Position numbers and translations under genes: made by a program. Below the pieces are notes generated by a model. It had not been told where the DNA came from and did not search any database. It saw nothing but the letters and a program-made list of their open reading frames with translations. Positions 10,041 to 64,000 of a stretch of 64,000 nt of DNA are shown here, in pieces; the first letter of the stretch is position 1; each line of letters begins with the position of its first letter. The DNA lies in assembly GCA_009103225.1 (NCBI GenBank), contig RHPI01001715.1:373819-437818 (forward strand), given 5' to 3'. The stretch comes from Chlorokybus atmophyticus. Taxonomy: Eukaryota > Plantae > Mesostigma and Chlorokybus algae.

Positions 10041-10521
10041 CACAGAAACAAGGGTTTGGCATTGAGGATAAGCGGTACGTAAGGGTATGTCATTGCACAA
10101 AGGTTATCTGGTGTTGCCTAGACTATACAAAAAGCGGTAAGAGTGTGCATGGACCGATTTTTAATAGGACTATGCATGTTTGTGATATGAGTATTGAGTT
10201 GTGCTACATTCTTGTTTTCTTGGCACCCAGTGCCTGATCTACGTTGCATGCTATTGTCTGCTTACATCAGTTTCAGCCAGCCCCTTGCTTGTGCTACTTT
10301 GCTTTGCTGTATGGCAGTGGATATCCATTCATGGGTACATATGTTGTTTCCAGCGTGCAGGCTTGCATCATGCTCTACGTTGCAATTCAACTGTTGCATA
10401 CTGACCCAGTGACACTCCGCATTTTATGTACATGCAGTGCTGTGGGTGGTTTGTTTGTGCGCTCGGCACTGAGTGTTTATCACGGATTCCTACACCCGAC
10501 TGCAGCTGTCAGCCTAGCCAT

Positions 10522-10607: not shown

Positions 10608-10700
10608 AATCTGTTCAGCAACGCTGTCCTGTACTTCCATTCATATCTGCACATATAATGCTCATGTGTACATATATTAGTGTTATGACCTGCTTCCTAC

Positions 10701-11763
10701 TTAACAATCGAGTCCAAGGGCACTACGCTGATGTCTTCTATCCAAAAGTATAGCCCTGCAGTCTGGCACAAGCGCTACGCGTCTGCTCAGCAAAGGCCTC
10801 TGCCAGCAGGTAGAGAAAAAGGTCTCCGCGGCTGCAGGAAGACCAAGGCGCTGGACGGACTTCCCACTCGCAGATGGCTGCTGTGACGAGGATGCCTCTT
10901 GCACGCACATCGCTGTTGGCCCGTCAGATGCGCTGCAATCGAGACAGAACGCACGGTCTTGTGGCTGATCATAACTGCGCAGCAGATGGTGTCAGTAATC
11001 AACATAAATGCACTTCATGAATGCATGCTTCTCGCTATGACTTTGCATGCTACTTACTTGGGAATTGAGCACATGCTGCAGTATAGCTGCTGGCAGCCAT
11101 CGCAAAACCGATAACACTTCGTGCAGAGCGCCCGACTGCGGATAAATTAAACGCATTACAAACCAGATAAACCACGCATTCGTTACCACTGCACAACTGC
11201 TGCTTACTCGCAGTGGGCGCAGGCGGCGCTGGGCTCCCCTTTCTCGCACAGGCGGCATTTTCCTGCTGCTGACGATAATGTTGATGTTGGCCTCCCAGAG
11301 GTGGAAGCAGCACTATCAGAGTGCACATGACCACCCGTTCCCCCTACCAACCTCCTGCTTCCGTCTGCCAGCATCTTCAAGGTTTGCTCTGCTCATAAAG
11401 CGAGCAGTGGTGTTGAATGAAACATGCCTGTCGCTAACTGTACGCAAATATTGGTGTTTACGGGGTACATACGGAAAATTGATAACATGATCTCTTACCA
11501 TATACAGAGCGCTCGTCGGTTTTGGCATGTTTCTCATCTGAATGCCTATCTTCGTGCCCGCTAGCTGGCGCTCCTCGCTTGGTCCCCAAAGAGAAAAAGA
11601 ACCTGGTACCTATATCCACAGAATTATTGCAATTCGAAGACAACAGCAAGAGAAAGCAGCCGCCAGGCTGGGGTGCAACCAGATCAGTACCCCATAACTA
11701 AAGCAAGCGTGGAAGCATGGCATGCGGCGCAAGAGAAGGGACACCAACCTCTTTACCTGCCAT
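10701..11763 (-). CDS. SIVA: SIVA-family cysteine-rich zinc-finger protein
   Basis: Exons 11763-11757, ~11609-11499, 11388-11208, 11135-11058 and 10974-10701 splice to ...ERSVYEQTLKMLADGSRR...KCRLCEKGEPSAACAHCDRALCTKCYRFCDGCQQLYCSMCSIPNYDQPQDRAFCLDC. The cysteine spacing matches the Siva C-terminus (CxxCERALCxxCxRxCxGCxxxxCxxC...LCxxC), and the N-terminal VxEKTxxLLFxG-like motif is present. Confidence 0.8.
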
Positions 11764-25754: not shown

Positions 25755-27529
25755 GTCTAGCCTGATAAGCGCGCGTAGCACAATGATCATTGTGCCGTAA
25801 TTGGCTGCGAGCAGTACTGCCTGCAAGTCATACAGCTATGCACTATCGTGCATACCGCAAGCAGTGTGCTGGCAGAAGACAAGTTCAAGCATATCCCATT
25901 GTAGTGTGGTCGTTTGCCACTGGGTGGTGGCGAGATGATACAGTAGATACAGCTGGTGACTTCGTAGGGTTACGAAGGGCCTGCGCGAGTGTTGTATATT
26001 GTCAACATGTACTTATTCACTGTAGCGCCATAGCGGGTGTGGTGTCATGCTCTTTGTTCTCGGTAGTACCTCAGTACTGTAGTTCAGGATGATTTTGACT
26101 AACGATTTTGTCGCAAACTCTGTGACTTATCTCGTCTTGACTAGCCTGGTGAGCGCAGTGCAGGGCACCATATTTGTATACAGGATATGCTTCAATCAGT
26201 TGTATAGATGCAACCAGTACACAAGCGCGAACACATGCAATGATGATCGCATGCAAAACAACTGGGCTACTATGTACTGCAGGTTTCTACTTAGCACGCT
26301 AACTATCCTAGACCTCCCCGTTAGCCATGCATGTCAATGTGAGTTACCTGCCCACACAGGCGCACTGTCAGTTCCGCTCGCAATGGCAACAACAGTGACG
26401 ATGTCAACAGCCAGGACCACTCCCTCTCCCCCTCTCCCGCTGCCTCCCTCGCCACTCTCTCCGCAACATCGTCGTTCTGCTTGCGTGTAGCACCCCACCC
26501 TAACCCTTGCTGTGCACTGCCAACGTCAGCAGTGCACAGCGCAGGGCTGCTGTGGTGCCATTGCTGGTCCGGTGCTGGTTAGGTGCTGGTTAGGTCGCTG
26601 TTGGGGTTAGGTGGTGGGGTTGGGGGTTATATGCACACTCCCCATGTACATACAATGCGAAACGGCAATGTGTTGTACTGTGTCATAAGCCTTGTGTACA
26701 TACGTGTACAGAAAGTACTGGTTTACTACACTATACTGTGGTTGCAGTTGGAGCACTGGAGTGCATGACCACCTGCTTGCACCAAACTTTTTGCGCTACA
26801 TCACAGCATGCACATTCGGCACAAGATGCAACAATAATCTCACTAAGTATATAGCAAATTCCAGCTGTACAAGGGTGATGTCGACATGCTGGTCGAATAC
26901 ATGCATCGTGTTGCTTGCCTCAAAGCAAGTACGCAGTTCTACGTCTTGCATTCACATTTAAGTGTTGTGTCGGCCCTGTGTTAGCAGAATCTGGCCCTGG
27001 GTGGAGCGCTTGCTTCACTTACGCCATGGTAAGCGCTCCATGCAGTGTTGTTGTATACAACCGTAAATGCAATAATAATTGTGACATAGCATCATACACG
27101 CAACAACAATTGTCACGTGCAAGCACACGGTCAGTCACAGCAGTCAGAACACGCTCGACCACCGTGCTGAACTAGTGTTGTAGCTCACCTAGGTCGCCAC
27201 AGTTACTACCAACACTACCGCTCACTCCATTGATCATGCAAGCATGCACATGCACAAGTGTACATAATATGCACGTGATGTATGCAACATGTCAGTGTAA
27301 CCACCTGAGCATGGAGCTGTGTGTAGTAATTCAGCGGAAATAAAGGTGCTCTGTAGCAAGTTTGATTGCCTGTGAACCATAATCTGTGACATAACACCAG
27401 AAGGGCCACCTCACCTCTTTTTCATCCTTGCCAACCTTGAGTGTATCCTATCGATGCAAAACAGTGAAGGTGAAATGCATGGTGCATCAAAACCCGCACA
27501 CTACATGCAGGAGTGGCTTGTTTCATAGA

Positions 27530-41589: not shown

Positions 41590-42467
41590 ATGGGTGAAGG
41601 CAGGGGCGGCATGATGTTGGGCGCAACATCCGCCAACACGTTGTTCCTGCTGTCGTTGCTGAGCGTAGCAGCCTCCATAGGTAAGTATTTCAGCGCTTCT
41701 GCATGTACGCATACTTGTGTTTGTTCTTTATTCGTTGAGGGAAGGAGTCCATTGTCAGCACACCAGTTTGATGCACACCGCACTACCAACTGCACATCGC
41801 CATGTGTGACATGCTTCCATTGGCTGATGGGCTTGTGTGAACAACATGTGGTGTGTGCAGTGACCGCCCAAGACAGCACGTGGGTGCAAGGGACAGGTAA
41901 TTTGTCGTTACTGCTGCTGCAATTCAAGGACTTGTGAGGACTACATCTCTTTCTCCCAACCACTGACTGTGTGTTGTTCTGCAACGCCACATCTGGTTTT
42001 CAACACCACCTGGCCAACTGGCCACAGACTGGAAACGGTGTGATCACACGCTCAAGTGTGTGTGCGTGTGCGCGCGCACGCGCGAGCGTGTGTGCGCATG
42101 CATGCCCACACACTTTTATGTACAATCGTGCGCTAACCTTGTTTAATGCAGAGTGCGCCAAGAGCCTGCTGTTCCAGCAGTCCCGAGCCCAAGACTACTC
42201 AACGTACAAGCACACCACAATCCAGGCCATCCCCGCGCAAGATGCCGTGCAGGTGTGTTGCTTTTGCTGCTGCTGCTGCTGCTGCTGCTAATGTTGTTTC
42301 CACATGAACGCCGCACACATTACCACACTTCGCTTATCGTCACAGCGTGTGTTGATACCACATGTATCTGGGTCAGGGGCCTGGCGCTCCACGGCCCGTC
42401 ACGCTCTACACCGCGTCTCCCAACAGCCTCCAGAAACGCATCTACCAAGTGACCGTCATCGGAGGTA

Positions 42468-42527
<60 letters not shown>

Positions 42528-44227
42528 GTTGATGCTGAATTGGGAATGGTCGCATTGCCATATGGTGACCCTTCAACTAGCCAAACAGCGACACAGTGTG
42601 CGTGCATGGGTGCCTGCGCGCGTGCGCGTGCGCGCGAGCATTTGCGCGCATGCGTCTGTTTGTTTGCATGTGCGTGTACGTGCACGTGCGTGGGCGCGTG
42701 TGTGCGTGTGTGCATGTACACACGCGTGTCTCTGTCCCCAGACGAGTTCTTCTGGTGCGAGAACACTGGCAACACGAGCGACCGCTTCCAGGACGCGTGG
42801 CACTTCTATTCCGGAAGCGTCTCGGCCGGGGATGTCACTCCCACCACGGCCGGGCGCCTGTCCCCCGCTGTCTACTTCACCTATTCACGATGGGACTACC
42901 CAGAGAGCGTGCTGTTTGCAGTCGACAACTCCGCTGAGAAAGAAGGTGAGTTAGGGAGCATTGTGTCTCTAGTTGCATGTACACGCACACGTGTACTCGC
43001 GCGCACACGCACAGTTGTGTTTCTCACTTCCCCTGCCTGCAGGTGCCGTGGGCAAGCGCTACGTCATCACGACGGGCGACCTTGACGGAATCAAAGTGGT
43101 GGCCAACTGGTTCCCTGACAAGGTGAAGCTGCTGGACAATAGCGGCGTCGTTAGGATCGACACAACAGGTGAGACAAGGGTTGACGTGTGCACGTGCTTG
43201 CACGCTTGAGACTTCTCTCTCGTTCAGCCATTACACACCGCACGGACGTGTGTGTCCCGTGCACACGCACACTCTACTCACCTCATCCATGTTCGCAGTC
43301 ACACCTGTCATGCTGTATTTTACGGATCGCACGCTGAACACGTCTTCGGGCGTGTACCACAAGTCCATCGAGCGTGCACCGTTGTACGGCAACAGGACGA
43401 GGTTGGGTGGTGTGCAGACGATCTACAAAGGCGTGGAGCACGGGTACGAGCCCATAGAGCAGATGCAGCTGGACACCGTCAACCGACGCCTTTTCGTCCT
43501 CCACATCAACTACAACAGGCAACGCTCACAACTCGCCGTACACGACATATCAGTCAACCCACCAACACTCGTCTTCAAGCGACCCATCAATCACGACTAC
43601 GTCAAGTACTTCAAGATCGACGTGTACTCATGTGAGTATACGTGGTCGTGTCTCAGCTTGTGGGTCTTTGGCCTCTGCTGCAGAAAGACTGCATCATGTG
43701 TGCGTGGACATATGCGTCCATGCTGGCGCGAATGTGGTTGTTATGCGTGCTGCCAGTCACATACTTACACCCACTCCATTGTCACAACAGCACCCCCCGT
43801 GCTGTACGCGCTGGTCCTTGGGCAATCGCTCTACAAGGCCCATCTTGTCGCGCTTGACGGGTGAGTAAGTTGCTTTAATACTTTGATGTTGCCTTGATAC
43901 CGACACGTGTCTGAACCCACAGCACCGACATGGGGGCGAGCAATGATACTATTATCGTGGGACCCAAGCTGCAGATCGCGTACGCATCGCTTAACTACTT
44001 CAACGTGTACTCCAACTTCGACATTTACTACGGTACATACACACGCACGCACACACACACACAGAAGCTTGCACACGCATGCACGCACGCACTTGTTGGT
44101 TTATGTGCATAGGTTGCCATGTGCACGCTTTGCAATAAGTTGTTGGTCACATAACCAGTCATCTGTTGTGTGCGATATTGCAGACCCTGAGTGCGTGGCG
44201 GCGTTGGCGCCGGCGACAAGTGAGTAA
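41590..44227 (+). CDS. Predicted secreted protein with beta-propeller-like (YWTD/LY-like) repeats; 3' end uncertain
   Basis: Signal-peptide-like TLFLLSLLSVAASI; at least nine GT-AG exons in TG-rich introns splice in frame; MLYFTDRTLN...SIERAPLYGNRTR...PIEQMQLDTVNRRLFVLH. Confidence 0.65.
42472..42526. repeat. (CT)n microsatellite in an intron
   Basis: About 26 uninterrupted CT units. Confidence 0.95.
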
Positions 44228-47949: not shown

Positions 47950-48467
47950 TGTAAATGTAATGATGTGCAGCGAAGTGCAGAGCTGGAGCTGGCGCTACTG
48001 ATTTGGCTAGCTAGAGTAATAGTTGTTGACAGGGCGCGCAGTTCACCATGTTGTTTTTCATGCATTGACCTTGTTGTCCCAGAAGGTGCAATACCCCTGT
48101 GGGAAACACCTTCAATACCTTATATACAGCGCGCCCGATGAAGGTGTTGAGGGTGTCATGTGTGGCCGCCATGCAGTAGACAAAGTCTCCTGGCTAGAAG
48201 CGGTGTTCTTGCTCTTTGTAGAAACCGCTGCGCACACGCTCGTAGTAAAGCGTGTCGCGGTGCTAAGCAATGCGCCGGGTGCTGAAGGCCATGGGAACAC
48301 TGTGTTCAAACAGCGCGCTGCGCATTGTTAGGTCATACAGCATCTAGTCGGGGTTGTCGAGATTGTCCCCCACTCTGTCGACCTCCTGCTGTGCGCGGAA
48401 AGGGAGCAATGGCTGCCTTCCAAACAGCAAATAGTATGGGCTGTACTCCCGCAGTGCTGCCTGCTTA
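47950..48467 (-). pseudogene. Integrase C-terminal remnant of the gypsy element
   Basis: YSPYYLLFGRQPLLP followed by EHRF*PGDFVY...KVLKVFPTGVLHLLG, typical of the post-core integrase region. Confidence 0.7.
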
Positions 48468-48499
48468 GACGGTGCACCCCGACAAGTGCACCTTCTGTA

Positions 48500-49200
48500 C
48501 TTGTGGGTACAGAAGGTGCACTTGTCGGGGTGCACCGTCATCCCTACTTCCTTCATGCTCTGTAGCATTTTCTCAATGTGTCTGAGATGCTCCTCATTGC
48601 TGCGACTGAAGATGAGGATGTTGTCGATGTAGCAGCGTGCGAAGTCCAATCCCTTGAGGGCTTTGTCCATGACGTGCTAGAAGATGGCAGGAGCATTCTT
48701 CAATCTGAGAGGCATGACCTTCCACTGGTACAGCTGCCGGTTGCCCCAGAAGAAGGTCTTGTGCTTGTCCTCCTCTTTAATGGCAATCTGGTTGTACCCT
48801 TGGCGCATGTCTTGTATATAGGAGACTGTACAGTCTACTACATCATCAACGATACCTTTTGCAGTAGGCATTGAGTACCTGTCTTGCTTGGTTTTGTTGT
48901 TGAGGGGGCGATAATCACCGCACATACGCCGGTCTGTCCGGTTGCCTGCTGAATCCTTCTACAGGGGCATGACGGTCGCGGCCGCAAAGTCCAATGTGGA
49001 TTGCTCAATCAGGCCTGCATCTAACAGAGCCTTGCACCTCTACTCCACCAAGTCTTACAACTTGGAGAGTCGGTATAAACGTCGGAATACCGGGTCGGTG
49101 TCCACCGACCCGACGTCCATCTAATAAACTGAGCAGATGCCCAGTTTCTCATGCTCAAGCCAGAATGGCTCCTCCACCTGTTGAGGAGAGCCTCAAGTTG
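48500..49200 (-). pseudogene. Ty3/gypsy reverse transcriptase (inactivated)
   Basis: LLDAGLIEQS..FAAATVMP, RRMCGDYRPLN..TKQDRYSMP, DMRQGYNQIAIKEEDKHKTFF, QWKVMPLRLKNAPAIF, CYIDNILIFS (catalytic YIDD changed to YIDN), HPDKCTF. Confidence 0.93.
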
Positions 49201-49439: not shown

Positions 49440-50370
49440 ACCATGCTGTTCTAATCCATGGCGCGCCCCAACAACTGACACTGCTGACTGTCGGTCAGCA
49501 TGGAATTTGTGATACTGCCTGGAGAGGATCCCATGGCGCGTTGCGTTCACGAGCGTTGGGTTCCTCCAATCGGCCTGTGTTGAAATCCAACACCATGCCG
49601 TCACTTTTGTTACGGAGGCATACGGTCCCGGATAAGACACTAGAGTGGGGAGCGCACGGCGTCGTTGACAATGCTGATTGCACTGGTCGAAGTGCTGATG
49701 ATCGTGTCGCGTGACCAGTTGCTGTGCGCCCAAGGTCGAAGATAGCGGCGATGTCGCGTGGACGACCGTTGTGCAGATTTTCAGCAGTAAAGAGATCCTC
49801 GACTGTAGCCAGGTTCGTCCACTTGATGCGGACGCGATGAGCGCGGGATTCATGACGCGCTATGCTTTAAGGAGGATGCCTTAGCAAGGAACACACCTGT
49901 TGAAAGTTGTTGGCCACGATGATGACGCTTATCGTTCTCGGAGTGCACGTTCTCGATGATGTATCACAGAGGCCTCGAAATCTAGTTGCTCTGCAGAAGG
50001 GTGATGACGCGCATCAGCTCCCAAAACAGTTGCGAGAAAGGATCAGAGAGTCCTTGGCCTCTGCCTGCTCTGGAGTGTTCTTGACACTCCCATTCTGCCA
50101 TCAGCAGGTCAATGTTGCCCACCGCCAGAAGGTAATCCGCAGTGATTAAACGGATGTCCTGTGGTGCCTTCAGACTGTCTTGCAGTGCTAATAGTGGCAG
50201 CTGCTGCTGGTAGCATTTTTGTAGATGGCGCAAGTAGTGGCCCAGGGCGATCTGTGCATGTGGATCAAGGTCACAGTAGAGGTACTTGGTGACCGTAACG
50301 CCGGTGTTGAGGACAGCGGCGAGGCCACTACCTACATCTCCAAACAGTTTCAACACGGTGATGCCTTGTT
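49440..50370 (-). pseudogene. C5-cytosine DNA methyltransferase domain embedded in gypsy pol (disrupted)
   Basis: Motif I TVLKLFGDVGSGLAA (~50365-50320); motif IV DLLMAEWECQEHSRAGRGQGLSDP (~50110-50040); motif VI YIIENV (~49963-49946); motif VIII RAHRVRIKWTNL (~49845-49810); motif IX EEPN..ERQRAMG; motif X QCQLLGRAMD*N (~49490-49445). The motifs are in canonical order. Confidence 0.88.
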
Positions 50371-50699
50371 GTCGGCGAAAAACGTGGAACTTCACTACTC
50401 CGGTGGCCACCTGGTATTGCTCTTGGACTGCAGCTTGGTCTTTGTACAGAGGGAACTGTGCAGTGAGCTGTGATTGGTCAATGTGTGCGACCACTTGTGC
50501 GCGCCAACGGCGTTCAGATGGTTTCTGTTGGGCCACTTCTTCAATGGCATCCTTTTGGGACTCATCATATGGGATAGGAGAGTCCTGGCCAGGGTTGTGG
50601 GTGACTACCGCTGCTGACCTGTCAGTGGTTATCAAAGCCGACCTGTAGGTGGCTGTTGCAACTGACCTTTGTTAAGAGCGAGTGCGAGACACCAGCTTG

Positions 50700-51100
50700 A
50701 GAGGCAGGTATCCTTGCACCCCTCCATCCTCCTCATCCAAATGGGGACGAAACCATGCCTTCTCTGTCCAGCAGTCCAACCCCATGCCGACAGGAAACTT
50801 GAACTCCTGTCCCAGCAGCAGGTCGAAGAATCCCGCATCGGTGACCACACACTTTTGTATGACCTCGGTGTTGTGGGAAGGGTCCAACCCTGTCAAGCGC
50901 ATGCAGAGGGCATGCTTGGTGATGCCAATCTTGTCACGGCTGCCGGTTGCTGTGTCGAGCACGTATGGGCAGGGCATCAGCTCAGCGCTGGTGATGCCGA
51001 GGTCGCGTGCGAGGTAACGTCCGATGATGATAAGCTGAGCTCCAGAGTCCAGCATCACGCGCTGGGTGCTCGACCATAAATGGTAACATGCTTGCCTTTG
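50700..51100 (-). pseudogene. Retropepsin aspartic protease of the gypsy element
   Basis: RVMLDSGAQLIIIG (DSG catalytic motif) and downstream FDLLLGQEF in ORF 50672..51391. Confidence 0.85.
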
Positions 51101-51734
51101 TTGGCGATCACGGCTGCAATGATGCACAGACACTTGAACCGTCGATAGCGTGTGCGTGGGGTGACTGTTGCTGCAGTCCCCTTTAGTGGTGTCGAGCGCA
51201 GTGCGGCAAGCACCCCTCGACCGGCTGGGGCTTGAGAACCTCTTGCGGCCTGGCCCAAACCGTCCTTGTCTTGGCTGTTGGTATACCCGCTGCGGCCTGG
51301 GTGCCGGCGGTGCTGCATGTGGCTGCCCTGCTTGTGGCGCAGGGGGGTTGCGCCTCGGTGTGTCCAGGGTCATACCTAGTGGCATAGCCAATAGCTGTGG
51401 GAGAAACCCTGGAGGACCGAGTGTTTGTGGGCGCGCCTGTCATGCAGCCTGTTCTTCCTCATAAGTCCAGCGTACATCATGAGCCGCCTCCCTGACCAGT
51501 GTACCTTCCCATGTGGCTGTTGGGTTGTTGACCACGTCACTCCTCAGCAATTCTGAGGCATGGGCTGGAGGTACACTGCGCGCAAGAGCCGCGCTCTTAT
51601 GTCGTGGGTGATGGTGGGAACCCTTAGGATCCCTGCCATGTAGGCATCCCATTTGCCATTGACCACCCCCACTGTTGAAGAAGCTAGCAAGACATGTAGC
51701 TAAGGCTGATGCTGGACATGCACACACACAACTC

Positions 51735-52095
51735 TACAGCCGCGAGAGCATACACAAGAGCAACACTTTCACTTGATTACAACTCAAGCACGGGCTTTTA
51801 TACCCGCTGCAGATACACCTGTCTACTCTAGAAGCAACTGTGTACGCTACACGTTACCTAGCATCATGAACTTAAGTGCATGACGTAGCTAACTTCAAGA
51901 CCTTTCGAACAAGCTAAGCCACGCGCCAATCGGTGTAGTAACCACCGAGTTATGCGTGTTCTTCTACGCGCCTGGAAGTCGCGCCTGGAACCTTCTCTTC
52001 GACTGGAGTCTCCGCCTAGAACCTTCTTGAATGGAGTCCGCGCCTGGAACCTTCTGGCGGCCAAACCTTCGGAGTTGACGCCTATGCCTGTATGA
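51735..52095 (-). repeat. LTR-like segment with internal cgcgcctggaaccttct repeats
   Basis: Non-coding block upstream of the gag/pol remnant; minus-strand TATA-like ggtataaaag; about four copies of a ~17-bp motif at 51967-52055; patchy similarity to 55490-55805. Confidence 0.55.
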
Positions 52096-52099
52096 AGGT

Positions 52100-55000
52100 C
52101 AAGGCTGACCGGATATAGAAATATCCTCAACACCCACTTCTAGCACCGTTGTTGCTCGTGCACGTATAGTGTGGTAAATCTCTAGCTGTTTGACGTGCTG
52201 CTTAAAAGCAGCCGCGATGCGTCTGCGCTGTCGCGCTGCTTCCACTCCTGACAACCTCAACATGGCCTCTCGAGCTCCTTTGAAGGTGTCCATGGCTGCC
52301 GAGGCAACCTCGTCATAGGCTTGCCGTAACGAGCAAAGGAAGACGCTCAACCAGGACGACTTGGTGCCAAATGCGAACAAAGGGACTGCGGGGTGATTGG
52401 TGACTAGCCAAGTTACTAATCTCGCTCTCGCGCTGCATTGCCACCTTCTCGCATCCCCAACATCCGTCTCAGGCCTATGCCTTCTTGTCGATGTAGCATG
52501 GTTGCTTGTCGCAACAAGGTAGTGCGAATTTGCTGTTCTCCCACTGAGCCTGCTCCATCCCATTGTGTACACCCTTGTGGTGTAAGGTAGCCTCTTTGAG
52601 AATCTCGTTGTTCGTCAGGCAAGTCTTCCACTAAGGCGGGTAGCAGCGGGGCGATCACCCCCCTGGTTTGTTGGGCCAGCGCCCTCACCTGGTTAATGTC
52701 GGGCTCAACGGCGAGAGGCGTCGAGCTGGACGATGGGCCAGCGATTGTCGGTTGAGGAACGGAAGCGCGAGCAGCAGCAAGGGCTTGCGTTCTTGCGTTG
52801 ATGGTTGCAGTTTGGTCCTGCCGCCAGTTGAACGCTTGTTTAAGAGCGGTGTAGCGCTCGTGGAGCCGATAATACAGAGGGTTCTCAGTGCTGCGTCGCT
52901 TTTTAAAGGCATATCGGCTGCATCAATGATGTGCTGCTGCACATTGGGTTGCCGGTCTCGATATGTGTCCAGCGGACTTGGCTCGAATGGCTCGCAACGG
53001 ATGTGTACGGGCTGGCGTGGCGCGGTCTGCATGTTGTTGTGCAGAGTTCAGCCAGCTGCAGGGCCAACTCCAGCACAACAACTATTCTGACCACAAAGAC
53101 GCGTTCTCGCATGGGAGGCGCCATGCCGGCGAGGATTTCATTCTCCAGTTGCCGCTGAGTCTGCTCTGCCAGGGTGTGCTATTCAAGCAGCGGGATCACT
53201 GCGTTTAACGCGCGTGGTGTGCTCTCCTCCTCGGCCAAAAGCAGCATCGTAGTGGGATTTGCTCCACGCATGATGGTCTCCCATGCGCGCTCAGCTTGCT
53301 GACCTCGCGGGACAGCCTGAGTGACATCGAGGACGGGCAACGTAGCTGTGCGCATTGCTGTTGTGGCAGCAAACTCAACAATGGCACTGGCAGTGGTTGC
53401 GATAGTGCCGCTCTCCGCGAGAGTGGTCTCAATGCAAACACAAGTGGTCCTATAGCTGGCGGAGCGAGACCGATGCGGTCGACTGCTGCAGAGTCGGTGA
53501 CAGCAGTGGCTGTCGCCATCGTGCTCACCCATGTTGGCGTCACGGTGCCCACTGATATACCAACTTCTGGTGCAACTGGAGTAGTTGCTGCTGATGCTGA
53601 CGGAGTTGTTGACGCAGCCGGTGTGGCTGTTGCTGCTGATGCAGCACCATTGGTGGCTTCAGAGAAGGTAGCTGCTGACGATGTTGCGGCTTCCCCTCGT
53701 GCTCGTCGGGATGGTTAAACGCGCAACGGAGTGCTCATGTCTCTCGTGCGCTCCGGAGCCATCAGTGCCCATTGGGCAGAGTAGCAGGCGCGGTAGTCCT
53801 GCTCCTTGTCTTCCTCCAAGCGTGCCATACGCGCCATGAGAGCAGTAATATGGTCACCAGCTGGCGGGTTGGCTAGAGCCTTGGCGGCAACAGCAGCAGC
53901 ACGCGGACGTCTTTCCAGTCCCCTGCGCTGAGGAGAACAATTCTTCCCCCTGTAGCCTCGTTCTTCTTTACGGGCGTTGGCGCAGTTGTTGTTGTTGTTA
54001 TGGCCTCCAGTGTGGTTACTATGGTAGCCACCAGAGTTGTTGCCGTTGTGGCCTCCAGTGTTGTTGCTGTTGTAGCCACCAGTGCTAATGCCGTTGTGGC
54101 CTCCAGTGTTGCTGCTGTTGTAGCTACTAGAGTAGTTATTGCTGTAGCTGTTGGCAGGTCTCAACTCAGGGAACTTGAGCCAACAGACTGACTCCAAGTG
54201 ACCCGTCTTGTGATAGTGGTCGCAGACCTGGGTTGAGTACTCTTCGGTGCACTCCTTTTTGTAGTGTCAAAGCCGTCCACAACGATAACACAGCACAGGG
54301 GCAGGCAAAGTAGTATAAGCTGAGCGTTTCCCTTTATCGCGTGCTGGTGGAGCATCCCGGCAACGTTCGCGGCGAGGAGGCTCAGTAGTTGTGCTGGCTA
54401 TAGGCCGTGAGGCATTGCGGTTGATGTCCAGCACTGCCTTCTCACACACCAAGCGCTTGTCAATGGCTTGTGCAATCTCAAAAGCTTCCTTGTGCGTACA
54501 GCCAAGGGGCCTGAGGCTGCTGTGGTTTGGGGGCAGGCGCGTCAACTCGCTCAGGGTTGCATCCAACTTATTGACCACTGCAGCAGCCTCGTCACAGATC
54601 TTGTAGTCGATTTCCTTCAACGGCCCTTCCAGTCTGGAGTACAGGTGTAGAGGGTCCTCGGTGAACTTGCATCAAAATCGTCTCAGCTCCTCCACTTTGC
54701 CGGTGGTCTGAGGTGGGAAGGTGTGACGAAGTGCAGCGTATAGAGACTTGAGTAGAGAGTCGGAGATAAGATGGCAGCACCTACGGTAATGGCTGGTGCG
54801 CGCAGTGCAATTGACGTAAGGGTGAAAGCACTGCCTCCCGCACGAGAGCCAGGTGTTGCCAGAGGTAGAGGTGTGCCCACCTCAACGGCTGCAGCTCGTT
54901 GCTCTTTAAGGATAGCAGCAGATTGGTCCAGGATCCGATCCCGTCGTGGTCTCATTCTCTGCAGGGGTCAGGTTGACGATCACCAACTCAAACTCCTCCT

Positions 55001-55805
55001 CCTCTGCCCTGTCGATGGCTGCAGCGATAGACAAGCCGGTGACTGCAACGGGAGTGGCAGGCGGAAAGACGGCTGCTGGACTGTGCAATAACGCAGATGC
55101 TACAGTGCTGGCGAGCTCCTTATAGCCATCAACTCGATGCAATCAGCAACAGACTTCCAGACATCGTGTGCTTCATGGTCCAGATACTGAGCAGCAATGT
55201 GGAAAGAAATCTCATCTGACCAGTCTTTGTTCTTCTGAAGTTGCTGTCGCATCTTTAAATAAAACTTGATGATAAACTCGTCTAGTAAGGTAGTGCCAGC
55301 GCGTCCGGAGAAGCGCAGGGATGTGGTTGAGCTAAAAACCTCCATCTCGTAGTCGTCACTGTCGGACGATAGTGGGGAAGCTCGATGGTGAGGAGTAGAT
55401 TGGAACAAAGTGAAGCCGGAGACAAAACGCGAGCCTTGCTGAAGGACTAGCATGCACATGTAGTTGAGGCAAGCATAGACACACATAGACAGAGCTACCG
55501 CCACCTGAGCATACACAAGTCACATCACATTCATCTATTACAAGTTGGCCCGCTGGTTCTTATACCAGCCAGTTACACACACGTCTACGTTTGCAAGCAC
55601 TGCGTAAGCTGTGCTTAGCCTTTTGACGCGCTCTAAGCTGCGTTGTTTTTTTTACAACCAGAGCTTTCCAACAAGCTCTCACACGCCTAGTATGAGTAAG
55701 TATACGCGGAGATACGAAGCAGTTAGTAAGGCTCCAGTCTGAAGTCCGGAGTCTGGTCCGACGACACCATCTTGCTAAGTCCGGACCTAGTGCTCGTCCT
55801 TACGA
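52100..55805 (-). mobile_element. Second decayed LTR retroelement: LTR-like region plus long gag with two CCHC knuckles, no recognisable pol
   Basis: LRFSGRAG...LDEFIIKF (gag N-terminus, ~55330), CYRCGRL*HYKKEC and CDHYHKTGHLESVC zinc knuckles (~54290-54185), Asn/Gly repeat. LTR-like 55490-55805 shares gagcatacacaag, tatacc and ctttc.aacaagct with 51735-52095. Confidence 0.7.
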
Positions 55806-56040
55806 CCTTTTACTCCTGTGTGGAGGGTCGATGCTGATCGTATGTAGGAATGACTCTCAACAAGCCTTTGCTGCTGCGATCGTTGCTCTCGTTGTTAGTC
55901 CGCTCGTAGGTGAGATTGGAGGTTGGGCTCCAGCTGCTGAGGTCACCCTCGCCTACTGGAGAGAACGGGGTGGGCCTGGTCATACAGCTAGTCCACAAGT
56001 GAAAGTGTATGCAGGGTAGAATGCTTGTGCTCTACTGTCG

Positions 56041-56563
56041 GTCTTGATGCTGCTACCACTTACCACACTAGCGTTTGTGTGCGCACTACGTGATGACAAT
56101 GATGACGAATGTAAGGAGATGTATCCCAAGGTGCAAACTACACTATCTGATGCAGAATGGGATGCATTCACTAGCATAGAGGATGACACTGTGAGTAAAC
56201 AAGCCACTACAATAGGTAGTGCTGCATACAAAGTTTCTTGCATGAGTGGATGATGTACTGCACTGTTAAGTGAGGTGAACAAGCAACTCAGAGATGCTAT
56301 GTCTTGATGCTGCTACCACTCACCACACTAGTGCTTGTGTGCGCACTATGCGATGATAGTGATAACGAATGCAGGGAGATGTATCCCAAGGTGCAGACTA
56401 CACTATCTGATGCAGAATGGGACGCACTCACTTGAGCAAAGAGGATGACACTATGAGTAAACAAGCCACTACAATAGGTAGTGCTGTATACACAGTTTCT
56501 TGCATGGATGATGTATTACACTGTTTAGTGAGGTGCATGAACAAGCAACTCAGAGGCTATGTC
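56041..56563. repeat. Diverged ~260-bp direct tandem duplication
   Basis: gtcttgatgctgctaccact...gagatgtatcccaaggtgca...aacaagcaactcagag starts at 56041 and again at 56301. Confidence 0.92.
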
Positions 56564-57742
56564 GTGACTGATGTAGCAAACACACCACCGCCAAGCTCAC
56601 AACAATGACAAGCACAACGCACAAGAGCATACACTGTGTCTCACGTGGCAAGGCAGTCCTTGACAACCAGGACAATGTGCTTCCAGTTCAAGTCGCTTTA
56701 CAAGCTCTTAAAGTCAGAGTCTCTACTCTTAGTACTCACTCACAGTGTCATCAGCGAGTTTGGTGACATGACTTCCTACTTATACATGTCAATTCATGAC
56801 TGTGCAGTGCCACGCGGGCACTAGGCCAACAATCACATCGAGACCGTATGCTACAACAGAAGTTTCCTAAGATTCGATATAGCACATGAGCTGATAGTAG
56901 ATTCCTAACTGATCAGCTACGCGCGCTTCTTATAGAGTGGTTTACAGAGTAGCTCTAGCTACATGCTACATGGAGTACGAAGTAGCAAGCAATACATTGG
57001 GGCGCGCGCGGTCCACATGCTGGTAGCCCGAGTTTGGGGCTGGATGTAGGCATGCTTGACGAGGACTGGCATGCGAGGGTATTTGGCATGACAATGCCCA
57101 AAACCCTAGCAAATGGACAGGGGACCATGCGTGCCCAGTGCCTGCTACTCGTTTAGCACTGGCGCACGTGACCTTAGGAGCGAAAGACCAGGTGAGATGT
57201 GTCGTCGTGCCCAGGCAGGATGCCAAATAATCTGATCCAGGTTGCTGCTAATATACCGCTCCAACCGTGGTCCGTGATTTGCATGAGCCAGTGCTGGACA
57301 ATGTTGAGTGCTGTTCCGAGACCATGCATGGTCTACGAGGCCCGCTTACGACCGTACCAGCACAGCATGGTCCCACTTGTGAGAACTATGATTGGTCCGT
57401 ACAGTACATGTGTTCTGTACCAGTGCTGGTCACATGCCCTGCCTCATGAGCCGCATGGCATGCGACCAGCCCGTGTCCTATTGCTCAGGCCGCGTGCAAA
57501 CTAGTGGTGTACCGATCTACAAGCCGCGGGACACGCGATCAGCCCTGGTCCGGTCATTCGGACCATACCGGCGGGCTCTGCAACCGAACCACCGGTGGTC
57601 CGATCACGCCGGACCAATCGCGGCACTGGTACGCTGAGCTGTGCCAAACACGGTTTGTGCACCGCCTTCGACTGGTCCGCACGTAACAAGCCCTGTGCAA
57701 TCTAGCAATGGATTAATGTCACCAAATGAAACTCCCTCACAT

Positions 57743-57967
57743 TTAAACCAATGAGTGCCAGTGCTTTCCTGGAGTTTTGGTCTCAGATAGCGCTCCGACT
57801 TGTGAGTAGGGGTCAGCCTCCTCCGGGTTCACAAAGTCCCACAAGCTCTCGTGCTCGAACAACCACTTCATGTGGTTGCTCCAGGTGTTGAAGTTGTCGT
57901 CTCCGAACGGCTCAATCACCACCTTGTCATAGCTGATCGTCATAGTACCACGTGTAGAAATGGGTTT
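57743..57967 (-). mobile_element. Ty1/copia gag N-terminal fragment
   Basis: VIEPFGDDNFNTWSNHMKWLFEHESLWDFV matches the copia gag N-terminal (L.G.NY..W...M..LL....LW..V) motif. Confidence 0.7.
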
Positions 57968-58428: not shown

Positions 58429-61316
58429 ATGTCTGCGACTCCTATGTCTCCTGCTGGAGCTGGCTCAGCCTCGACGCCCGTGATGCCTCCATCCCCGGCC
58501 TGGCAGTCGGACGCAATGGATCAGGACGCTCGCCACCCGCTTGCGTCCCGATCCCCCACCTCCGGCACGTTTGGGGCTTATAAAAAAAGCCCCCCCTCCG
58601 CAGCTAAGTTGTTTTCCAGCTTGGTTTCCTCCTCTACCTTGGTTTCCCCTTGTGATGCGGTTGATGAGGTTGCTAGAGCAGCCGTAGACTCTAGTGCATT
58701 CACGGCTTGGCAAATTGCACTCTCCTCTGGTGCTCTTATCTTCACGTTCCCTTTTGTTAACTTCGATTCATCCACTTCTTCTGATAGCATTCGCACTAGT
58801 CGGTTGTCTTGGATAGCAACTGTGTGCTCGGATAGCGCCTCCATCCCTATGTACTCGTCTATTCACTGCCTCCCGGGGGGAGAAGTACATGTTGTTTTCT
58901 CCTCCCCCGAGGCTGCAATTGCAACTCTCGGCCGATACACTGCAGGCACCCTCCCCCTCTGGAAAGGTTCTCCTGTTCGTGCACGGCGCTAGGAGGACGA
59001 TGCGGTGGCCAAGGATTGGATCTCCTTTCCCAATGCCCCCCCCNNNNNNNNNNNNNNNNNNNNNNNNNNNNNNNNNNNNNNNNNNNNNNNNNNNNNNNNN
59101 NNNNNNNNNNNNNNNNNNNNNNNNNNNNNNNNNNNNNNNNNNNNNNNNNNNNNNNNNNNNNNNNNNNNNNNNNNNNNNNNNNNNNNNNNNNNNNNNNNNN
59201 NNNNNNNNNNNNNNNNNNNNNNNNNNNNNNNNNNNNNNNNNNNNNNNNNNNNNNNNNNNNNNNNNNNNNNNNNNNNNNNNNNNNNNNNNNNNNNNNNNNN
59301 NNNNNNNNNNNNNNNNNNNNNNNNNNNNNNNNNNNNNNNNNNNNNNNNNNNNNNNNNNNNNNNNNNNNNNNNNNNNNNNNNNNNNNNNNNNNNNNNNNNN
59401 NNNNNNNNNNNNNNNNNNNNNNNNNNNNNNNNNNNNNNNNNNNNNNNNNNNNNNNNNNNNNNNNNNNNNNNNNNNNNNNNNNNNNNNNNNNNNNNNNNNN
59501 NNNNNNNNNNNNNNNNNNNNNNNNNNNNNNNNNNNNNNNNNNNNNNNNNNNNNNNNNNNNNNNNNNNNNNNNNNNNNNNNNNNNNNNNNNNNNNNNNNNN
59601 NNNNNNNNNNNNNNNNNNNNNNNNNNNNNNNNNNNNNNNNNNNNNNNNNNNNNNNNNNNNNNNNNNNNNNNNNNNNNNNNNNNNNNNNNNNNNNNNNNNN
59701 NNNNNNNNNNNNNNNNNNNNNNNNNNNNNNNNNNNNNNNNNNNTCCGCCCTCCCTCTCTTCCGCGCCCCCTCCGCCTCCCCCCGCACCCGCCCTTCGCCC
59801 TCCTCCTGCTGCTGGCCCTGCCCCACCGCATAGCGGCGCCTTCGGCCCCGCCCCAGTAGGCCGCAAAGCTCGTGCACGCAAGCCTGCCTCTGCTCCTCAG
59901 CTGGGCCAACGCACCTTGGCCGACTTCATGCCCGCCTCCTCCTCCCAAAGCTGGTTCGCCATGGTTGAGGAGGAAGAGCGAGCTGCCTCGCCCCCTCGCT
60001 CGGAGATCGTCGCCCCCCCGGTGCTGCAGCTCGAGGAAGTCCCAGCGGCCTCTCTCCAGCCATGGCTGAGCGCGTGCTTGCAGGCCGAGGATCTGCCCCC
60101 TCCCCCAGCACCGCCCTCTGCTCTCTACATTGCGCCGTGCGTGCTCTCTCCCGCCTGCCCTGATTCGGGGGTGTTGGAAGCCTCCATCCTTTGCACGGAT
60201 GTCGGCAAATCTTCCGGCCTGCTCTTCATGAGAGCTCAGCCCCCTCTCCCTCTCTCCGCTCTCCCCCCTCGCGGCTTCCTTCGCTCGAAAGTCCGCCGCT
60301 CTTTGGAGAGGGTTAAGTTTCATCTTGACCCTGCCACGGAGGACCTGGCAGTTGACTGGAGCCTGAGTGAGGCGTAGCTGTTGGCCATGGAAGACACGGG
60401 CTCCGTGCTTTTGCTGGTGCCAGTCCGCGCCCCGGCCTCACTGCCCCGCGCCCCCATCCCTTCCTACCAGCAATAGCATACCCTTTCTCACTGGAACTCC
60501 GCCCTCCTCTCTCACCGTAAGCCGTCCTCTCTCTCCTCTGAGATTGCTGCGGTTGTGGATCGCTGGCGGCAGGCTCATCTCAGCCCGTCGACGCCCGCCC
60601 ATGATGCGACCCCCCCCTCTTCAGAGGCAGCCACCCATCGCGCAGGCCCCAAGTCGGTTGTGAAGCGCCTCTTCTCCCCCCCGCCTGCCACCTCCGCGTT
60701 GCCGGCGTCACCAGCTCCGACACACACTCGGGTGCGCCTTCTCTCACCATTCCGCCCTCCCCCGGACACCCCGGTGGCGATGGCAGTAGTTCTTCGCTGC
60801 TCGCGTGCGACGTGGTGGCTGGGTGTTCGGCGTCTCCCCTCTCCTCAGGACGGCCCCCCCTTTTCCCTTCCCTCCATCGTCCCCTCTCCCTCCCCGGGGG
60901 AAGAGGATCGGGCTCTCCTTCACGCTGCAGCCGCCCTGCTCGGTGTGTGTGGAGACGTGCAGTGGCGTTACTGGCCGGAAGCCCGACACACTCTTCCAAC
61001 CAGCTCCCCTGGCTCCTTGCTTGTCTGGTCGGTCCGCCTCCCTGGCGACCCGGACGATGCCATGGTGAATGTCTCGGCCAGCCAGCCCGCGCTTTGGTTG
61101 GACGTGGCCAAGCTTGAAGGCGTGCGGGGAGGTGCAGCCTCGCTGCTCGACGACAGGTCCTTGGCTGGCCTTCGCCTTCTTCGCGCCTCTCCCTCCCCTC
61201 TCCACGCACTCATGCCAGACTCGGACAGCTCTCTAAGGGATGTGCTGTACGACACGGCGGCACCTCGGGGGTTCTTTGACATTGCTGCCCTGCTCGGCCT
61301 GCCCACGGATGACTGA
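58429..61316 (+). pseudogene. LINE ORF1 (Pro-rich), interrupted by an assembly gap and in-frame TAG stops
   Basis: ORF 58429..58992 ends in TAG; N-gap 59044-59743. The frame after the gap continues through TAG at 60375 and 60474 to TGA at 61314-61316, directly abutting ORF2. Confidence 0.65.
59044..59743. other. Largest assembly gap (other gaps 8060-8079, 18277-18477, 29273-29469, 40035-40087)
   Basis: Runs of N, mostly flanked by poly-C/G homopolymers. Confidence 0.99.
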
Positions 61317-64000
61317 TTGCCTGCGAGACCCCTTGTCTATTTCGACCTGGAATGTCCGCAGCCTCAATGCCTCATCCTCCTCTCTCGGAGCCAACAAGCG
61401 CTCACGCTTGCTCACGCGCTGGCGTGACTGGTGCCTCCCCCGCAATTCAATTCTGTTCTTGCAAGAAACAAAACTCTCCCCCTCCTCCATGTGGCTTCGC
61501 CGTTTCTGGGGTGGGGGGTCCGTCTGGTCTCATGCTGACGGCACCAGAGGCGGGGTGGCCATTCTCTGCCCTCTTCTTTGGTCAAAGTACGTGGTTGACC
61601 AGGGCGAGGCTGTTCCCTCTAGATGCTGCTGGTTACGCATCCGTTGGGGAGAGGGCCTGTTGTTGCTTGTGTGCGTGTATGCCCCCACGGAGCGCACAGA
61701 GAGGGCTAGCTTCTTCACCTCTCTCCCGTCCCTCCTCCCCGCAGCTGACTGGGCGCTGCTTGGGGGGGATTGGAACGCGGTTGAAGACCCCTCCCTCGAC
61801 AGGTCCCCCCCCTCTTCCTCCTCTCATGAGTCTCCGGCTCTGCTGCAGCTCTGTGAGGAGCTGCAGGTGGAGGACGTTTACCGCACCCTCCACCCCAACG
61901 AGCTCTCGTTCTCTTGGGATAACGCGCACCTTGGCCCCTCTCGTCGGGCTGGCCGACTCGACAGATTTTACCTCAGCCTGGATCTCCGCACATGGGTGGA
62001 CGACAGCTCCGTGATCAACACGGAAGTCCTCTCTGACCACCGGCGTGTCCATATCCAATTGGCGCTGCCGGGCTCTTTCTCTCCTCTCCCCGGGCTGTGG
62101 AAATGCAGCCCCTCCCTCCTCACTGACCCTTTGTTCTTCGCCGCCGCTGAACAGCTCTGGGTCTCTCGCACCCCCCCCTTCCCGGTCCCTCCTTCTCATG
62201 TCGTGGGCTGGTTCGAGGAGGGGCTGGAGGCTTTGACTGTTCTTGCCAAACAGCATGATCGCCGACGGCGCCATGCCAAGGCCCAGCACCAGCGTCGCCT
62301 CCGCGTCGATCTCTCTTCTGCTCGCGAGCGACTTGATGCTGCTCCGCAAGACATGCTCATGCACGCAGAGCTGGTCCGCCTTCAGTCCGACCTGACTGCC
62401 GCGGAAGAAGATGAGGACACGGCGAGGGGGATAAGGGCTCACTCTCGCTGGAGGCTCCAGGGGGAGCGCATGACTTCCTATTTCTTCTCTAGAGCAAAGG
62501 CCCCTCAGCACTCCTCGGCTATCCGTTCTTTCTCTCACTCCACCACCCGTCACTCTCCTCCATTGACCTCTCAACGGCAGATTGTGGAGGCCTGCGCGGG
62601 TTTCTACCGTGACCTCTTCACCTCCTCCCCTGTCTTGCAGCCGGCGAAGCAGGCTGCTATGCATGCTTGCTGGTCGGTGATGGAACGCGCTCTCACGCCT
62701 GAGATGGCTGAGCAGCTGGACTCTCCTCTCCTTTTGGAGGACCTGTGGCGGGCACTGTCTAGCATGGAGCCCCACCGCTGCCCGGGACGGGATGGGCTCA
62801 CGGCGGCCTTCTGGAGGAAGATGTTGCCGGTCTTGGGAGAGGGCTACTTTCGCTACTGTCTACAGGTCTTGGCCCGCGGCAGTTTGGGGGCCTCGCAAAA
62901 GGTGGGGGTGGTCTCTCTCATACACAAGAAGGGTGAACTAGGTGATCTCCGGAATTGGAGGCCAATCACCCTCCTGCCGCTGCACTACAAGATCTTGGCT
63001 AAAGCGGTAGCCTCTCGACTGGCGCCTCTTCTCCCTCTCGTGATCAGCCCGGAACAGGCTGGTTTTGTCCGGCACTGTTTCATTCTGGACAACGTGCTCT
63101 CCGCCCTAGATCTCCTCGACCTGGGCAAGGAGTCCGCCTCCTCCTGCGCTCTCCTTATGCTGGATTTTGAAAAAGCTTTTGACAGGTTGGACTGGAGCTT
63201 CATTGATGGAGCCCTCTCGGCGCAAGGTTTCGGCCCCTCTTTCCGTTTCTGGGTACGCACCCTCAACGGTGGAGGCAACAGTCAGGTGCTGGTCAATGGT
63301 GAGCTCTCAGCGGAGTTTGAGCTGCAACGCAGCGTCCGTCAAGGCTGCCCGCTGGCCCCGTCCCTCTTCATCCTAGCCTCGGAGGCTCTGGGCGCACTCT
63401 TGCGAGCGAACCCCCTGCTACGCGGTTTCCCCCTGCCTTCAATCCGCATGGGCTCCTCGGAGACTAAGGCTCACGGCGAGGAGGACGTTGAGGACATTCG
63501 TCACTTCGAGTACGCGGACGACTTTACCATTGTTTTGAAGCTGACGGCGGAGGCCCGAGTGGCCTTTTCCTCCACCATTGATATCTATTGCCTTGCGTCT
63601 GATTCACTGCTTAGTTGGCAGAAGACGTGTGGCATTCTCTTTGGCGCCCCCCCTCCTTTCTCGGTGGCTGACTGGGAGATCCATTGGCTTGCCCCGGGAG
63701 AGGCAGTGACGCTCCTTGGCGTTCCGATGGGCTTGTCTCTTCAACAAGACCAACTCTTCGCGGACACCATTCGAAAGATTCAATCCAGGTTGGACGTGTG
63801 GTCACGGCAAGGGCTCTCCCTGCTCGGTCGTGCACTTGTTGCCAATAGCTCCGTCTTGGCTTGCTTGTGGTACCTGGCGGCCATATGCTCCCCCTCTCGC
63901 TCCTCTCTCTCTTCCCTCCGATCGTCTTGTCGGTCTTTGTTGTGGGGTCGCGGGCAACAAGGCTCCCCGGCAAAAGGCAAGGTGCGTTGGGAGGTCCTTC
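61309..64000 (+). mobile_element. L1/Tx1-type LINE ORF2 (APE endonuclease plus reverse transcriptase), open to window end
   Basis: I translated ATG 61309 codon by codon to 64000 without a stop: STWNVRSL, LFLQETK, GGVAIL, VYAP, GGDWN, RLDRFY, SDHRRV (APE); PGRDGLT, NWRPITLL, LDFEKAFD, VRQGCPLAP, YADD, LLGVP (RT). Confidence 0.96.

What the first reader, a model, noticed from the sequence alone, without database searches (positions are those of the whole stretch)
49440..50370. Ty3/gypsy retrotransposon carrying a full C5 DNA methyltransferase inside pol, between protease and RT
Seen: on the minus strand the protease (DSG, ~51050) is followed by all major C5-MTase motifs in canonical order, and then directly by gypsy RT (~49200-48500). 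The motifs are I LFGxxG-like, IV W-E-CQ-x-H-S-x-AG with the catalytic Cys intact, VI ENV, VIII RxR..WTN, IX EP...ERxRAMG and X LLGRAMD. This copy is dead (stops near 49982, 49965 and in motif X, frameshifts, RT YIDN). Established: ordinary gypsy pol has no methyltransferase. From memory, methyltransferase-bearing retrotransposons have been reported in dinoflagellates and the charophyte Klebsormidium (de Mendoza et al. 2018), so the class is rare but not unprecedented. Inference: a retroelement-encoded methylase, released from the polyprotein by the protease, could methylate its own cDNA for mimicry or protection, or modulate host methylation. This may be a further lineage or an independent capture.
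Basis: partly seen in the sequence, partly recalled or inferred. Interest (0 to 1): 0.88.

Follow-up and report, generated by a model that had tools for sequence, protein, structure and literature searches.

The report
Jumping gene with built-in DNA methyltransferase
This is a dead copy of a gypsy-type jumping gene whose replication protein contains a whole DNA cytosine methyltransferase domain, which working copies likely use to methylate their own new DNA; the kind was described in one alga in 2018, and relatives turn up across green algae and in a liverwort.

Summary
Confirmed. A complete but broken DNMT3-like C5 methyltransferase domain (50368-49433, minus strand) lies between the protease and RT of a decayed Ty3/gypsy element. 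It is an inherited part of pol, not a later insertion: other copies in two public runs carry it, linker lengths match relatives, and 52 of 263 retrieved proteins share the order, including named ones from Closterium, Mesostigma, Coleochaete and Marchantia. The catalytic Cys and Glu are invariant in 166 of 166 full-length relatives. A complete relative has the A-coding-B-A-B repeats described for KnitGypsy-Dnmt3 (PMC5890265), so this is a new, deep-branching member of a known kind, not an independent capture. This scan reported the same order before in peat-moss DNA. Additions not found in my paper searches: the same methyltransferase group sits after RNase H in chlorophyte elements (142 of 263), and one branch has a conserved in-frame stop just after it, likely read through. 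This copy is dead, has lost RNase H, the integrase core and its 3' repeats; enzyme activity is untested.

The parts
56417..57093 (-). 5' end of the element (likely terminal repeat A and leader); begins TGTCATG like the complete relative L025; inner boundary not fixed
   Evidence: contigs of a flanking repeat stop aligning at 57096 in both runs (table 8)
55437..55862 (-). Nested solo LTR of another element, 426 bp, TG...CA, 5-bp target duplication AGGCT
   Evidence: other copies skip it (joint 55431-55863)
54153..55405 (-). Decayed gag with two zinc knuckles; matches gag of same-order relatives
   Evidence: tblastn E 7e-8 to 2e-4; zf-CCHC E 0.0012
51673..52132 (-). Nested solo LTR, 460 bp, TGTTGA...TCAACA, 5-bp target duplication GTGGG; 71% alike to the other solo LTR over 151 bp
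   Evidence: other copies skip it (joint 51667-52133, both runs)
50744..51064 (-). Aspartic protease (LDSG)
50672..50674 (-). In-frame TAA followed by CAA between protease and methyltransferase: decay or a leaky stop, unresolved
   Evidence: compare L029
49433..50368 (-). DNMT3-like C5 cytosine methyltransferase domain, full length, broken by stops and frameshifts
48500..49036 (-). Ty3/gypsy reverse transcriptase, with stops, YIDN, cut at its C-terminal end
48468..48539 (.). 72-bp fold-back palindrome at the junction where RNase H and the integrase core were lost
   Evidence: loose ends at 48500 and 48470 in both runs
48029..48469 (-). C-terminal part of integrase; no PHD finger or 3' repeats found behind it
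   Evidence: tblastn E 3e-30 to P0223
19321..19974 (+). Second, older relic of the family's 5' end
   Evidence: local alignment score 290 against a maximum of 40 in 50 shuffles

Best explanation
This is a dead, internally deleted copy of a multicopy Ty3/gypsy family whose polyprotein carries a DNMT3-like cytosine methyltransferase between protease and RT, and working copies likely use it to put 5-methylcytosine on their own newly made DNA. Shown: the domain is whole, inherited with the element and has an intact catalytic set across relatives. Inferred: it is made as part of the polyprotein, packaged in the particle with RT, cut free by the element's protease, and methylates the cDNA (most likely at CG, by likeness to DNMT3) before or at integration, so that the new copy arrives already marked like host DNA. 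The host is likely a streptophyte alga (inferred, not identified).
For: Domain: PF00145 33 bits against cut-off 22; 318 of 318 profile columns present. Class: a profile of 66 relatives scores DNMT3A 100 bits, DRM-type 48, M.HhaI 45, DNMT2 22; the model of relative P0024 (pLDDT 96.5) matches DNMT3B/3A at Z 28, rmsd 2.5-2.6 over 264 residues, M.HhaI at Z 23. Catalytic set in 166 full-length relatives: Cys 166, motif VI Glu 166, motif VIII arginines 164 and 164. Part of pol: 249 and 123 contigs of two runs cover 30 of 30 bins from protease to RT with no joint skipping the domain, and one contig runs from motif IX into RT; linkers of 125 and 131 codons against a median of 120 (n=46) and a range of 101-173 (n=10) in relatives; uninterrupted Gag-PR-DNMT-RT-RH-IN proteins exist (P0011; P0270, P0280). 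Shared descent: window RT groups with all 10 same-order RTs at 96/92, and with 10 of 11 in the joined tree at 98/94. Precedent: SymbioDIRS-Dnmt3 methylates CG in yeast (PMC5890265 section 10).
Against: No activity data for this family; KnitGypsy-Dnmt3 itself gave no methylation in yeast, called inconclusive by the authors. Motif IV often reads WECQ rather than the usual PC, in the window and in many relatives, with unknown effect. No single contig spans protease to RT, and cover falls to 4-22 in bins 49670-49900 at 80% likeness. The element shows no special CpG loss (CpG o/e 0.59-0.90 in its domains against 0.71 in the LINE and 0.72 in a host exon). In the methyltransferase tree the window's place among same-order rows is unresolved. 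No Klebsormidium sequence came up, so it could not be placed directly. Substrate, timing and benefit are not shown.
Confidence: 0.6

Rival explanations
1. The enzyme is active but acts on host chromatin: it travels with the integration complex and methylates the target site or other DNA after entry, working with the PHD finger that relatives carry on integrase.
For: Many relatives of both orders end in IN-PHD; in chlorophyte relatives the domain sits next to integrase. Same fold and residues as the best explanation.
Against: In the window's order it is next to the protease and RT, and in the L002/L005/L025 branch it lies on the Gag side of a conserved stop, which suits a packaged enzyme; no PHD found in this copy. 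Klebsormidium has a plant-like methylome despite such elements.
Confidence: 0.17
2. The domain is kept for something other than DNA CG methylation: binding nucleic acid without catalysis, or methylating the element's RNA or non-CG sites.
For: No activity for KnitGypsy-Dnmt3 in yeast; frequent E in place of P before the catalytic Cys; this scan's notes report dead methyltransferase folds in other gypsy elements (unchecked).
Against: Cys, Glu and both arginines are kept in 164-166 of 166 relatives, which a non-enzyme would not need; DNMT2, the RNA enzyme, scores lowest of the listed classes (22 bits against 100).
Confidence: 0.17
3. The methyltransferase was captured independently in this lineage or inserted later into this one copy.
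For: The window's domain is distant from all rows (best 43% identity) and branches deep without support; the element does carry two later insertions.
Against: Those two insertions are skipped by other copies, the methyltransferase is not; gag, protease, RT and integrase tail all match the same family; linker lengths agree; RT clade 96/92.
Confidence: 0.06

Closest known systems
KnitGypsy-Dnmt3 of Klebsormidium nitens (de Mendoza et al. 2018, PMC5890265; read parts 1 and 4 of 7, section 10, passages, and passages of the review file; figures and the main supplement not seen)
   Same: Gypsy element, intronless DNMT3-related domain inside the Pol ORF with key residues kept; a complete relative found here (L025) has the same DIRS-like A-coding-B-A-B repeats.
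   Different: A separate deep branch (best identity 43-50% to any row); this copy is dead and lacks its 3' repeats. The position of the domain in KnitGypsy-Dnmt3 is given only in a figure that I could not see, and its sequence was not among my hits.
SymbioDIRS-Dnmt3 of Symbiodinium (same paper)
   Same: DNMT3-type domain in a Pol ORF, in two different domain orders; shown to methylate CG in yeast.
   Different: DIRS class with tyrosine recombinase; this element has a protease and a DDE integrase, and relative L025 has a 4-bp target duplication.
EpiLTRs of Cymbomonas and Euglena (bioRxiv 10.64898/2026.05.21.726589; read passages and section 7)
   Same: LTR retrotransposons with a C5 methyltransferase.
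   Different: Their enzyme is sister to DNMT4, comes with a Dam and a chromodomain, and the authors call it distinct from streptophyte Gypsy-DNMT3.
Mammalian DNMT3A/3B catalytic domain
   Same: Best sequence and fold match.
   Different: About 26% identity; no PWWP or ADD; embedded in a retroelement polyprotein.

Membership tests
C5 cytosine methyltransferases (PF00145) | Motifs I-X in canonical order with profile score above cut-off | tested here: met
   33 bits against 22; 318 of 318 family-profile columns
C5 cytosine methyltransferases (PF00145) | Catalytic Cys (IV), Glu (VI), two Arg (VIII) | tested here: met
   All four in the window copy; 164-166 of 166 relatives. The window copy has lost the motif I and IV glycines.
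C5 cytosine methyltransferases (PF00145) | Measured methylation of DNA | not testable with these tools
   Needs an assay
DNMT3 family | Closer to DNMT3 than to DNMT1, DNMT2, DRM or bacterial enzymes; unpermuted | tested here: met
   By score and fold only: 100 bits against 48, 45 and 22; Z 28 against 23-25 for bacterial enzymes, on relative P0024
DNMT3 family | Falls inside the DNMT3 clade in a tree with host enzymes | not tested
Ty3/gypsy retrotransposons | Order gag-PR-RT-RH-IN with RVT_1-type RT | tested here: met
   gag, PR, RT and IN tail in order in the window, RH and IN core deleted; whole order in P0011 and L002
KnitGypsy-Dnmt3-like elements | DNMT3-related domain inside the Pol reading frame, no introns | tested here: met
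KnitGypsy-Dnmt3-like elements | DIRS-like split repeats A-coding-B-A-B | tested here: inconclusive
   Met in relative L025. The window copy starts with the same TGTCATG but has no 3' repeats left.
KnitGypsy-Dnmt3-like elements | RT and DNMT group with the K. nitens sequences; same domain order | not testable with these tools
   No K. nitens protein among named hits; Fig. 4c not visible
KnitGypsy-Dnmt3-like elements | Purifying selection on the domain among copies (Ka/Ks under 0.2) | not tested
   No genome held; only protein-level invariance
EpiLTRs | DNMT4-sister enzyme together with Dam and chromodomain | tested here: not met
   DNMT3-like; no Dam or chromodomain hit in the window pieces scanned, though the 3' part of this copy is missing

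The most novel reading that the evidence does not exclude
The 2018 Klebsormidium element is one tip of an ancient gypsy lineage spread across the green plants that captured DNMT3 once, kept it catalytically intact from Mesostigma to Marchantia and through the chlorophytes, moved it between two slots in Pol (before RT, or after RNase H), and tunes its amount with a leaky stop: on the Gag side in the L002/L005/L025 branch, so that particles are loaded with methyltransferase, and behind the stop in L029 and perhaps in the window's branch. The window is a deep branch of its own, and intact Marchantia copies make cDNA self-methylation testable.
Probability: 0.5. Interest if true: 0.72.

Novelty: new member of a known kind. 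Interest (0 to 1): 0.5.

Why it matters
Cytosine methylation normally silences transposons, so why an element should keep its own methyltransferase has been open since 2018, and the one gypsy enzyme tested was silent in yeast. This copy cannot answer that, but it leads to a large family (602 representative proteins at E up to 0.001; not all were classified) with an invariant active site, two domain orders and members in a genetic model plant, Marchantia (cluster of 18). That gives many natural enzymes to assay and a host in which to look for methylated cDNA.

Tried and rejected
No own genome was held, so no copy count, intact copy or Ka/Ks for this family. A word-index search with the decayed N-half found nothing among 581 candidates. 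No RNA holder listed. Runs X3 and X4 laid 0 contigs. A fold of the window's N-half without an alignment was poor (pLDDT 44) and was not searched. The C-half alone: 0 hits in PDB and Pfam. No 5'/3' terminal repeat pair in the window; the two flanks are not alike beyond chance (42 of 200 shuffles as high). CpG depletion as a trace of self-methylation: none. Substitution pattern against other copies: 38 of 67 listed places are loss of C or G in the window, 13 of 38 in CG against 19% expected (p 0.036, one of three tests, places pre-selected by the tool): a weak hint of host methylation only. Viral contigs gave 13 weak, partial matches, not followed. The protein atlas did not complete, so the host lineage was not tested. 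The REM1 paper was not held. Whether the TAA at 50672 is shared by other copies could not be read, since the tables were cut (321 and 1740 rows not shown). No look-alike notes by sequence or place.

Full report
Observation. The minus strand reads gag, protease, C5 methyltransferase, RT and an integrase tail. The protease lies at 51064-50744, the methyltransferase at 50368-49433 and RT at 49036-48500. PF00145 scores 27 bits on the open stretch and 33 bits (cut-off 22) when read with X at stops through motif VI. The C-terminal half has no Pfam or PDB hit alone, but a profile built from relatives finds all 318 columns in order over four frame changes. The copy is dead.

Anatomy. The element starts at 57093 with TGTCATG, where contigs of a flanking repeat stop aligning in both runs. 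Two solo LTRs of another family are nested in it, at 55437-55862 and 51673-52132, each with a 5-bp target duplication; other copies skip both. RNase H and the integrase core are gone, with a 72-bp fold-back palindrome at the junction (48468-48539) and loose ends there in both runs. No PHD finger or 3' repeat follows the integrase tail. The host is not identified: a spliced TPR gene at about 23700-25750 (weak Pfam TPR hits) looks to me like the plant SDI1/MS5 family (recalled), and all named same-order relatives are streptophytes, so a streptophyte alga is my inference.

Is the domain part of pol? No genome was held. Two of four listed runs, from two studies, hold many diverged copies (1132 and 584 contigs). 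Over protease to RT, 249 and 123 contigs cover 30 of 30 bins; the one joint listed skips 10 bases, none skips the domain; one contig runs from motif IX into RT; loose ends show other copies going on in frame where this copy shifts. Limits: no contig spans the whole stretch, cover dips to 4-22 in the variable middle, and the tables are cut. A search of 1.84 billion representatives gave 602 hits at E up to 0.001, of which 150 were listed; a profile search listed 120 of 152. Of 263 proteins held at that point (near-copies included), 52 have the window's order (protease before or RT after the domain), 142 have it after RNase H or before integrase, 61 are fragments without neighbours and 8 lack it. 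Named members of the first order: Closterium NIES-53, -54, -65, -68, Mesostigma viride, Coleochaete scutata (partial) and Marchantia polymorpha; of the second: Scenedesmus, Monoraphidium, Haematococcus, Chromochloris. Most rows carry no organism. Linker lengths in the window (125 and 131 codons) fall inside those of relatives (median 120, n=46; 101-173, n=10).

What class of enzyme? The window's N-half hits DNMT3C/A/B first, weakly (E 0.001). The family profile scores DNMT3A 100 bits, a DRM-type chain 48, M.HhaI 45, DNMT2 22. A model of the unbroken relative P0024 (pLDDT 96.5) matches DNMT3 at Z 28, rmsd 2.5, 264 residues, and bacterial enzymes at Z 22-25. In 166 full-length relatives of both orders the Cys and Glu are invariant and the two arginines kept in 164 (18 unassigned rows left out). 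Many have E instead of P before the Cys.

Trees. Methyltransferase tree, 69 rows (35 first order, 29 second order of which 22 were drawn at random from 129, 4 unassigned): the second order is one clade (98); the window is deep and unresolved among first-order rows, best identity 43%. RT tree, 50 rows (25 of 102 unnamed second-order rows drawn at random): the window groups with all 10 first-order RTs and one Closterium RT at 96/92; the second order is a clade at 100/99. A joined tree of 28 rows puts the window with 10 of 11 first-order rows at 98/94, bootstrap not settled. The outgroup was thin (three chromovirus-type RTs and one more), so that the two orders are sisters, and that there was a single capture, is suggested, not shown.

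DNA of relatives. 39 metagenome loci were fetched, 33 of them with this element. L025 is complete: A (1679-2017), coding region, B (10238-10350), A, B (10693-10805), with a 4-bp target duplication. This is the arrangement described for KnitGypsy-Dnmt3 (PMC5890265). Of 20 loci with both domains examined, 15 keep methyltransferase and RT in one frame, and 14 of these have an in-frame stop at a like place between them (TAG in 9, TAA in 5), followed by CAG TTA, CAA CCA or CAA CCC in 13; they represent about four subfamilies, not 14 events. This matches the CARYYA leaky-stop context (recalled) and would make Gag-protease-methyltransferase the main product. L029 has instead a TAG between protease and methyltransferase. 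The window has a TAA CAA at that position (50672); I cannot tell decay from design.

Mechanism. Shown: an inherited, full-length DNMT3-like domain in pol with a conserved active site. Inferred: made with the polyprotein, packaged, released by the protease, and acting on the new cDNA, probably at CG. For: position, conservation, and CG activity of the dinoflagellate DIRS enzymes in yeast. Against: the Klebsormidium enzyme was silent in that assay, there is no CpG depletion in the element, and nothing here measures activity. I put this at 0.6, action on host chromatin at 0.17, a non-CG or non-catalytic role at 0.17, independent capture or later insertion at 0.06.

Literature. The kind is known: PMC5890265 (parts 1 and 4 of 7, section 10, passages, review-file passages; figures and the main supplement not seen, and these may hold the domain order). 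A 2026 preprint (passages, section 7) still lists 'streptophytes (Gypsy-DNMT3)' and treats its EpiLTR enzymes as distinct; its supplements are closed. PMC12344493 and PMC6338049 (passages) repeat the 2018 result; the latter says broadly that methylase-bearing elements occur in green algae and not in land plants such as tracheophytes. Passages of 10.1101/2021.11.30.470311 and PMC6673714 added nothing. Searches found no paper on Closterium, Marchantia or chlorophyte members, on the second domain order or on the leaky stop; the library lacks most subscription journals and Repbase reports. This scan noted the same order twice in peat-moss DNA.

Verdict. Real and correctly described; a dead new member, on its own deep branch, of a known rare kind. 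The interest lies in the breadth of the family that it reveals. Interest 0.5.

Noticed in passing
P0081, P0181, P0218, P0109 and others: 142 of 263 proteins carry the same methyltransferase after RNase H, mostly as RT-RH-DNMT-IN-PHD; named ones are chlorophytes. One clade in both trees. Not found in my paper searches.
   Followed up: partly
L001, L002 (5083-5085), L005 (4509-4511), L016, L025 group: Conserved in-frame stop between methyltransferase and RT in a leaky-stop-like context, 14 of 15 same-frame loci.
   Followed up: partly
L029:8051-8752 and C-terminal tails of second-order proteins: Adenine-methyltransferase-like motifs behind the PHD finger (31 of 117 tails match a loose motif; Pfam N6_N4_Mtase E 0.0045, below cut-off): possibly elements with both a cytosine and an adenine methyltransferase.
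   Followed up: partly
P0037, P0277: Protein with a very divergent RT, this methyltransferase and a Pfam Dam domain: possibly a DIRS-like element with two methyltransferases.
   Followed up: no
P0208 cluster, Marchantia polymorpha: 18 members annotated as hypothetical proteins, several on the V/Y chromosome.
   Followed up: no
window 1404-2242 and 2549-3387: 839-bp inverted repeat, 100% identical, next to a single N: likely an assembly artefact.
   Followed up: no
window 61237-63999 (+): LINE ORF2 (endonuclease and RT) open for 921 codons to the window's end.
   Followed up: no
window 23700-25755 (+): Spliced TPR-protein gene resembling plant SDI1/MS5 (name recalled).
   Followed up: partly
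window 42450-43860 (+): Exon-like stretches of an unidentified host protein without Pfam hit.
   Followed up: no
window 57700-57945 (-): Short stretch resembling the start of a copia gag (recalled; no Pfam hit in the frame scanned).
   Followed up: no
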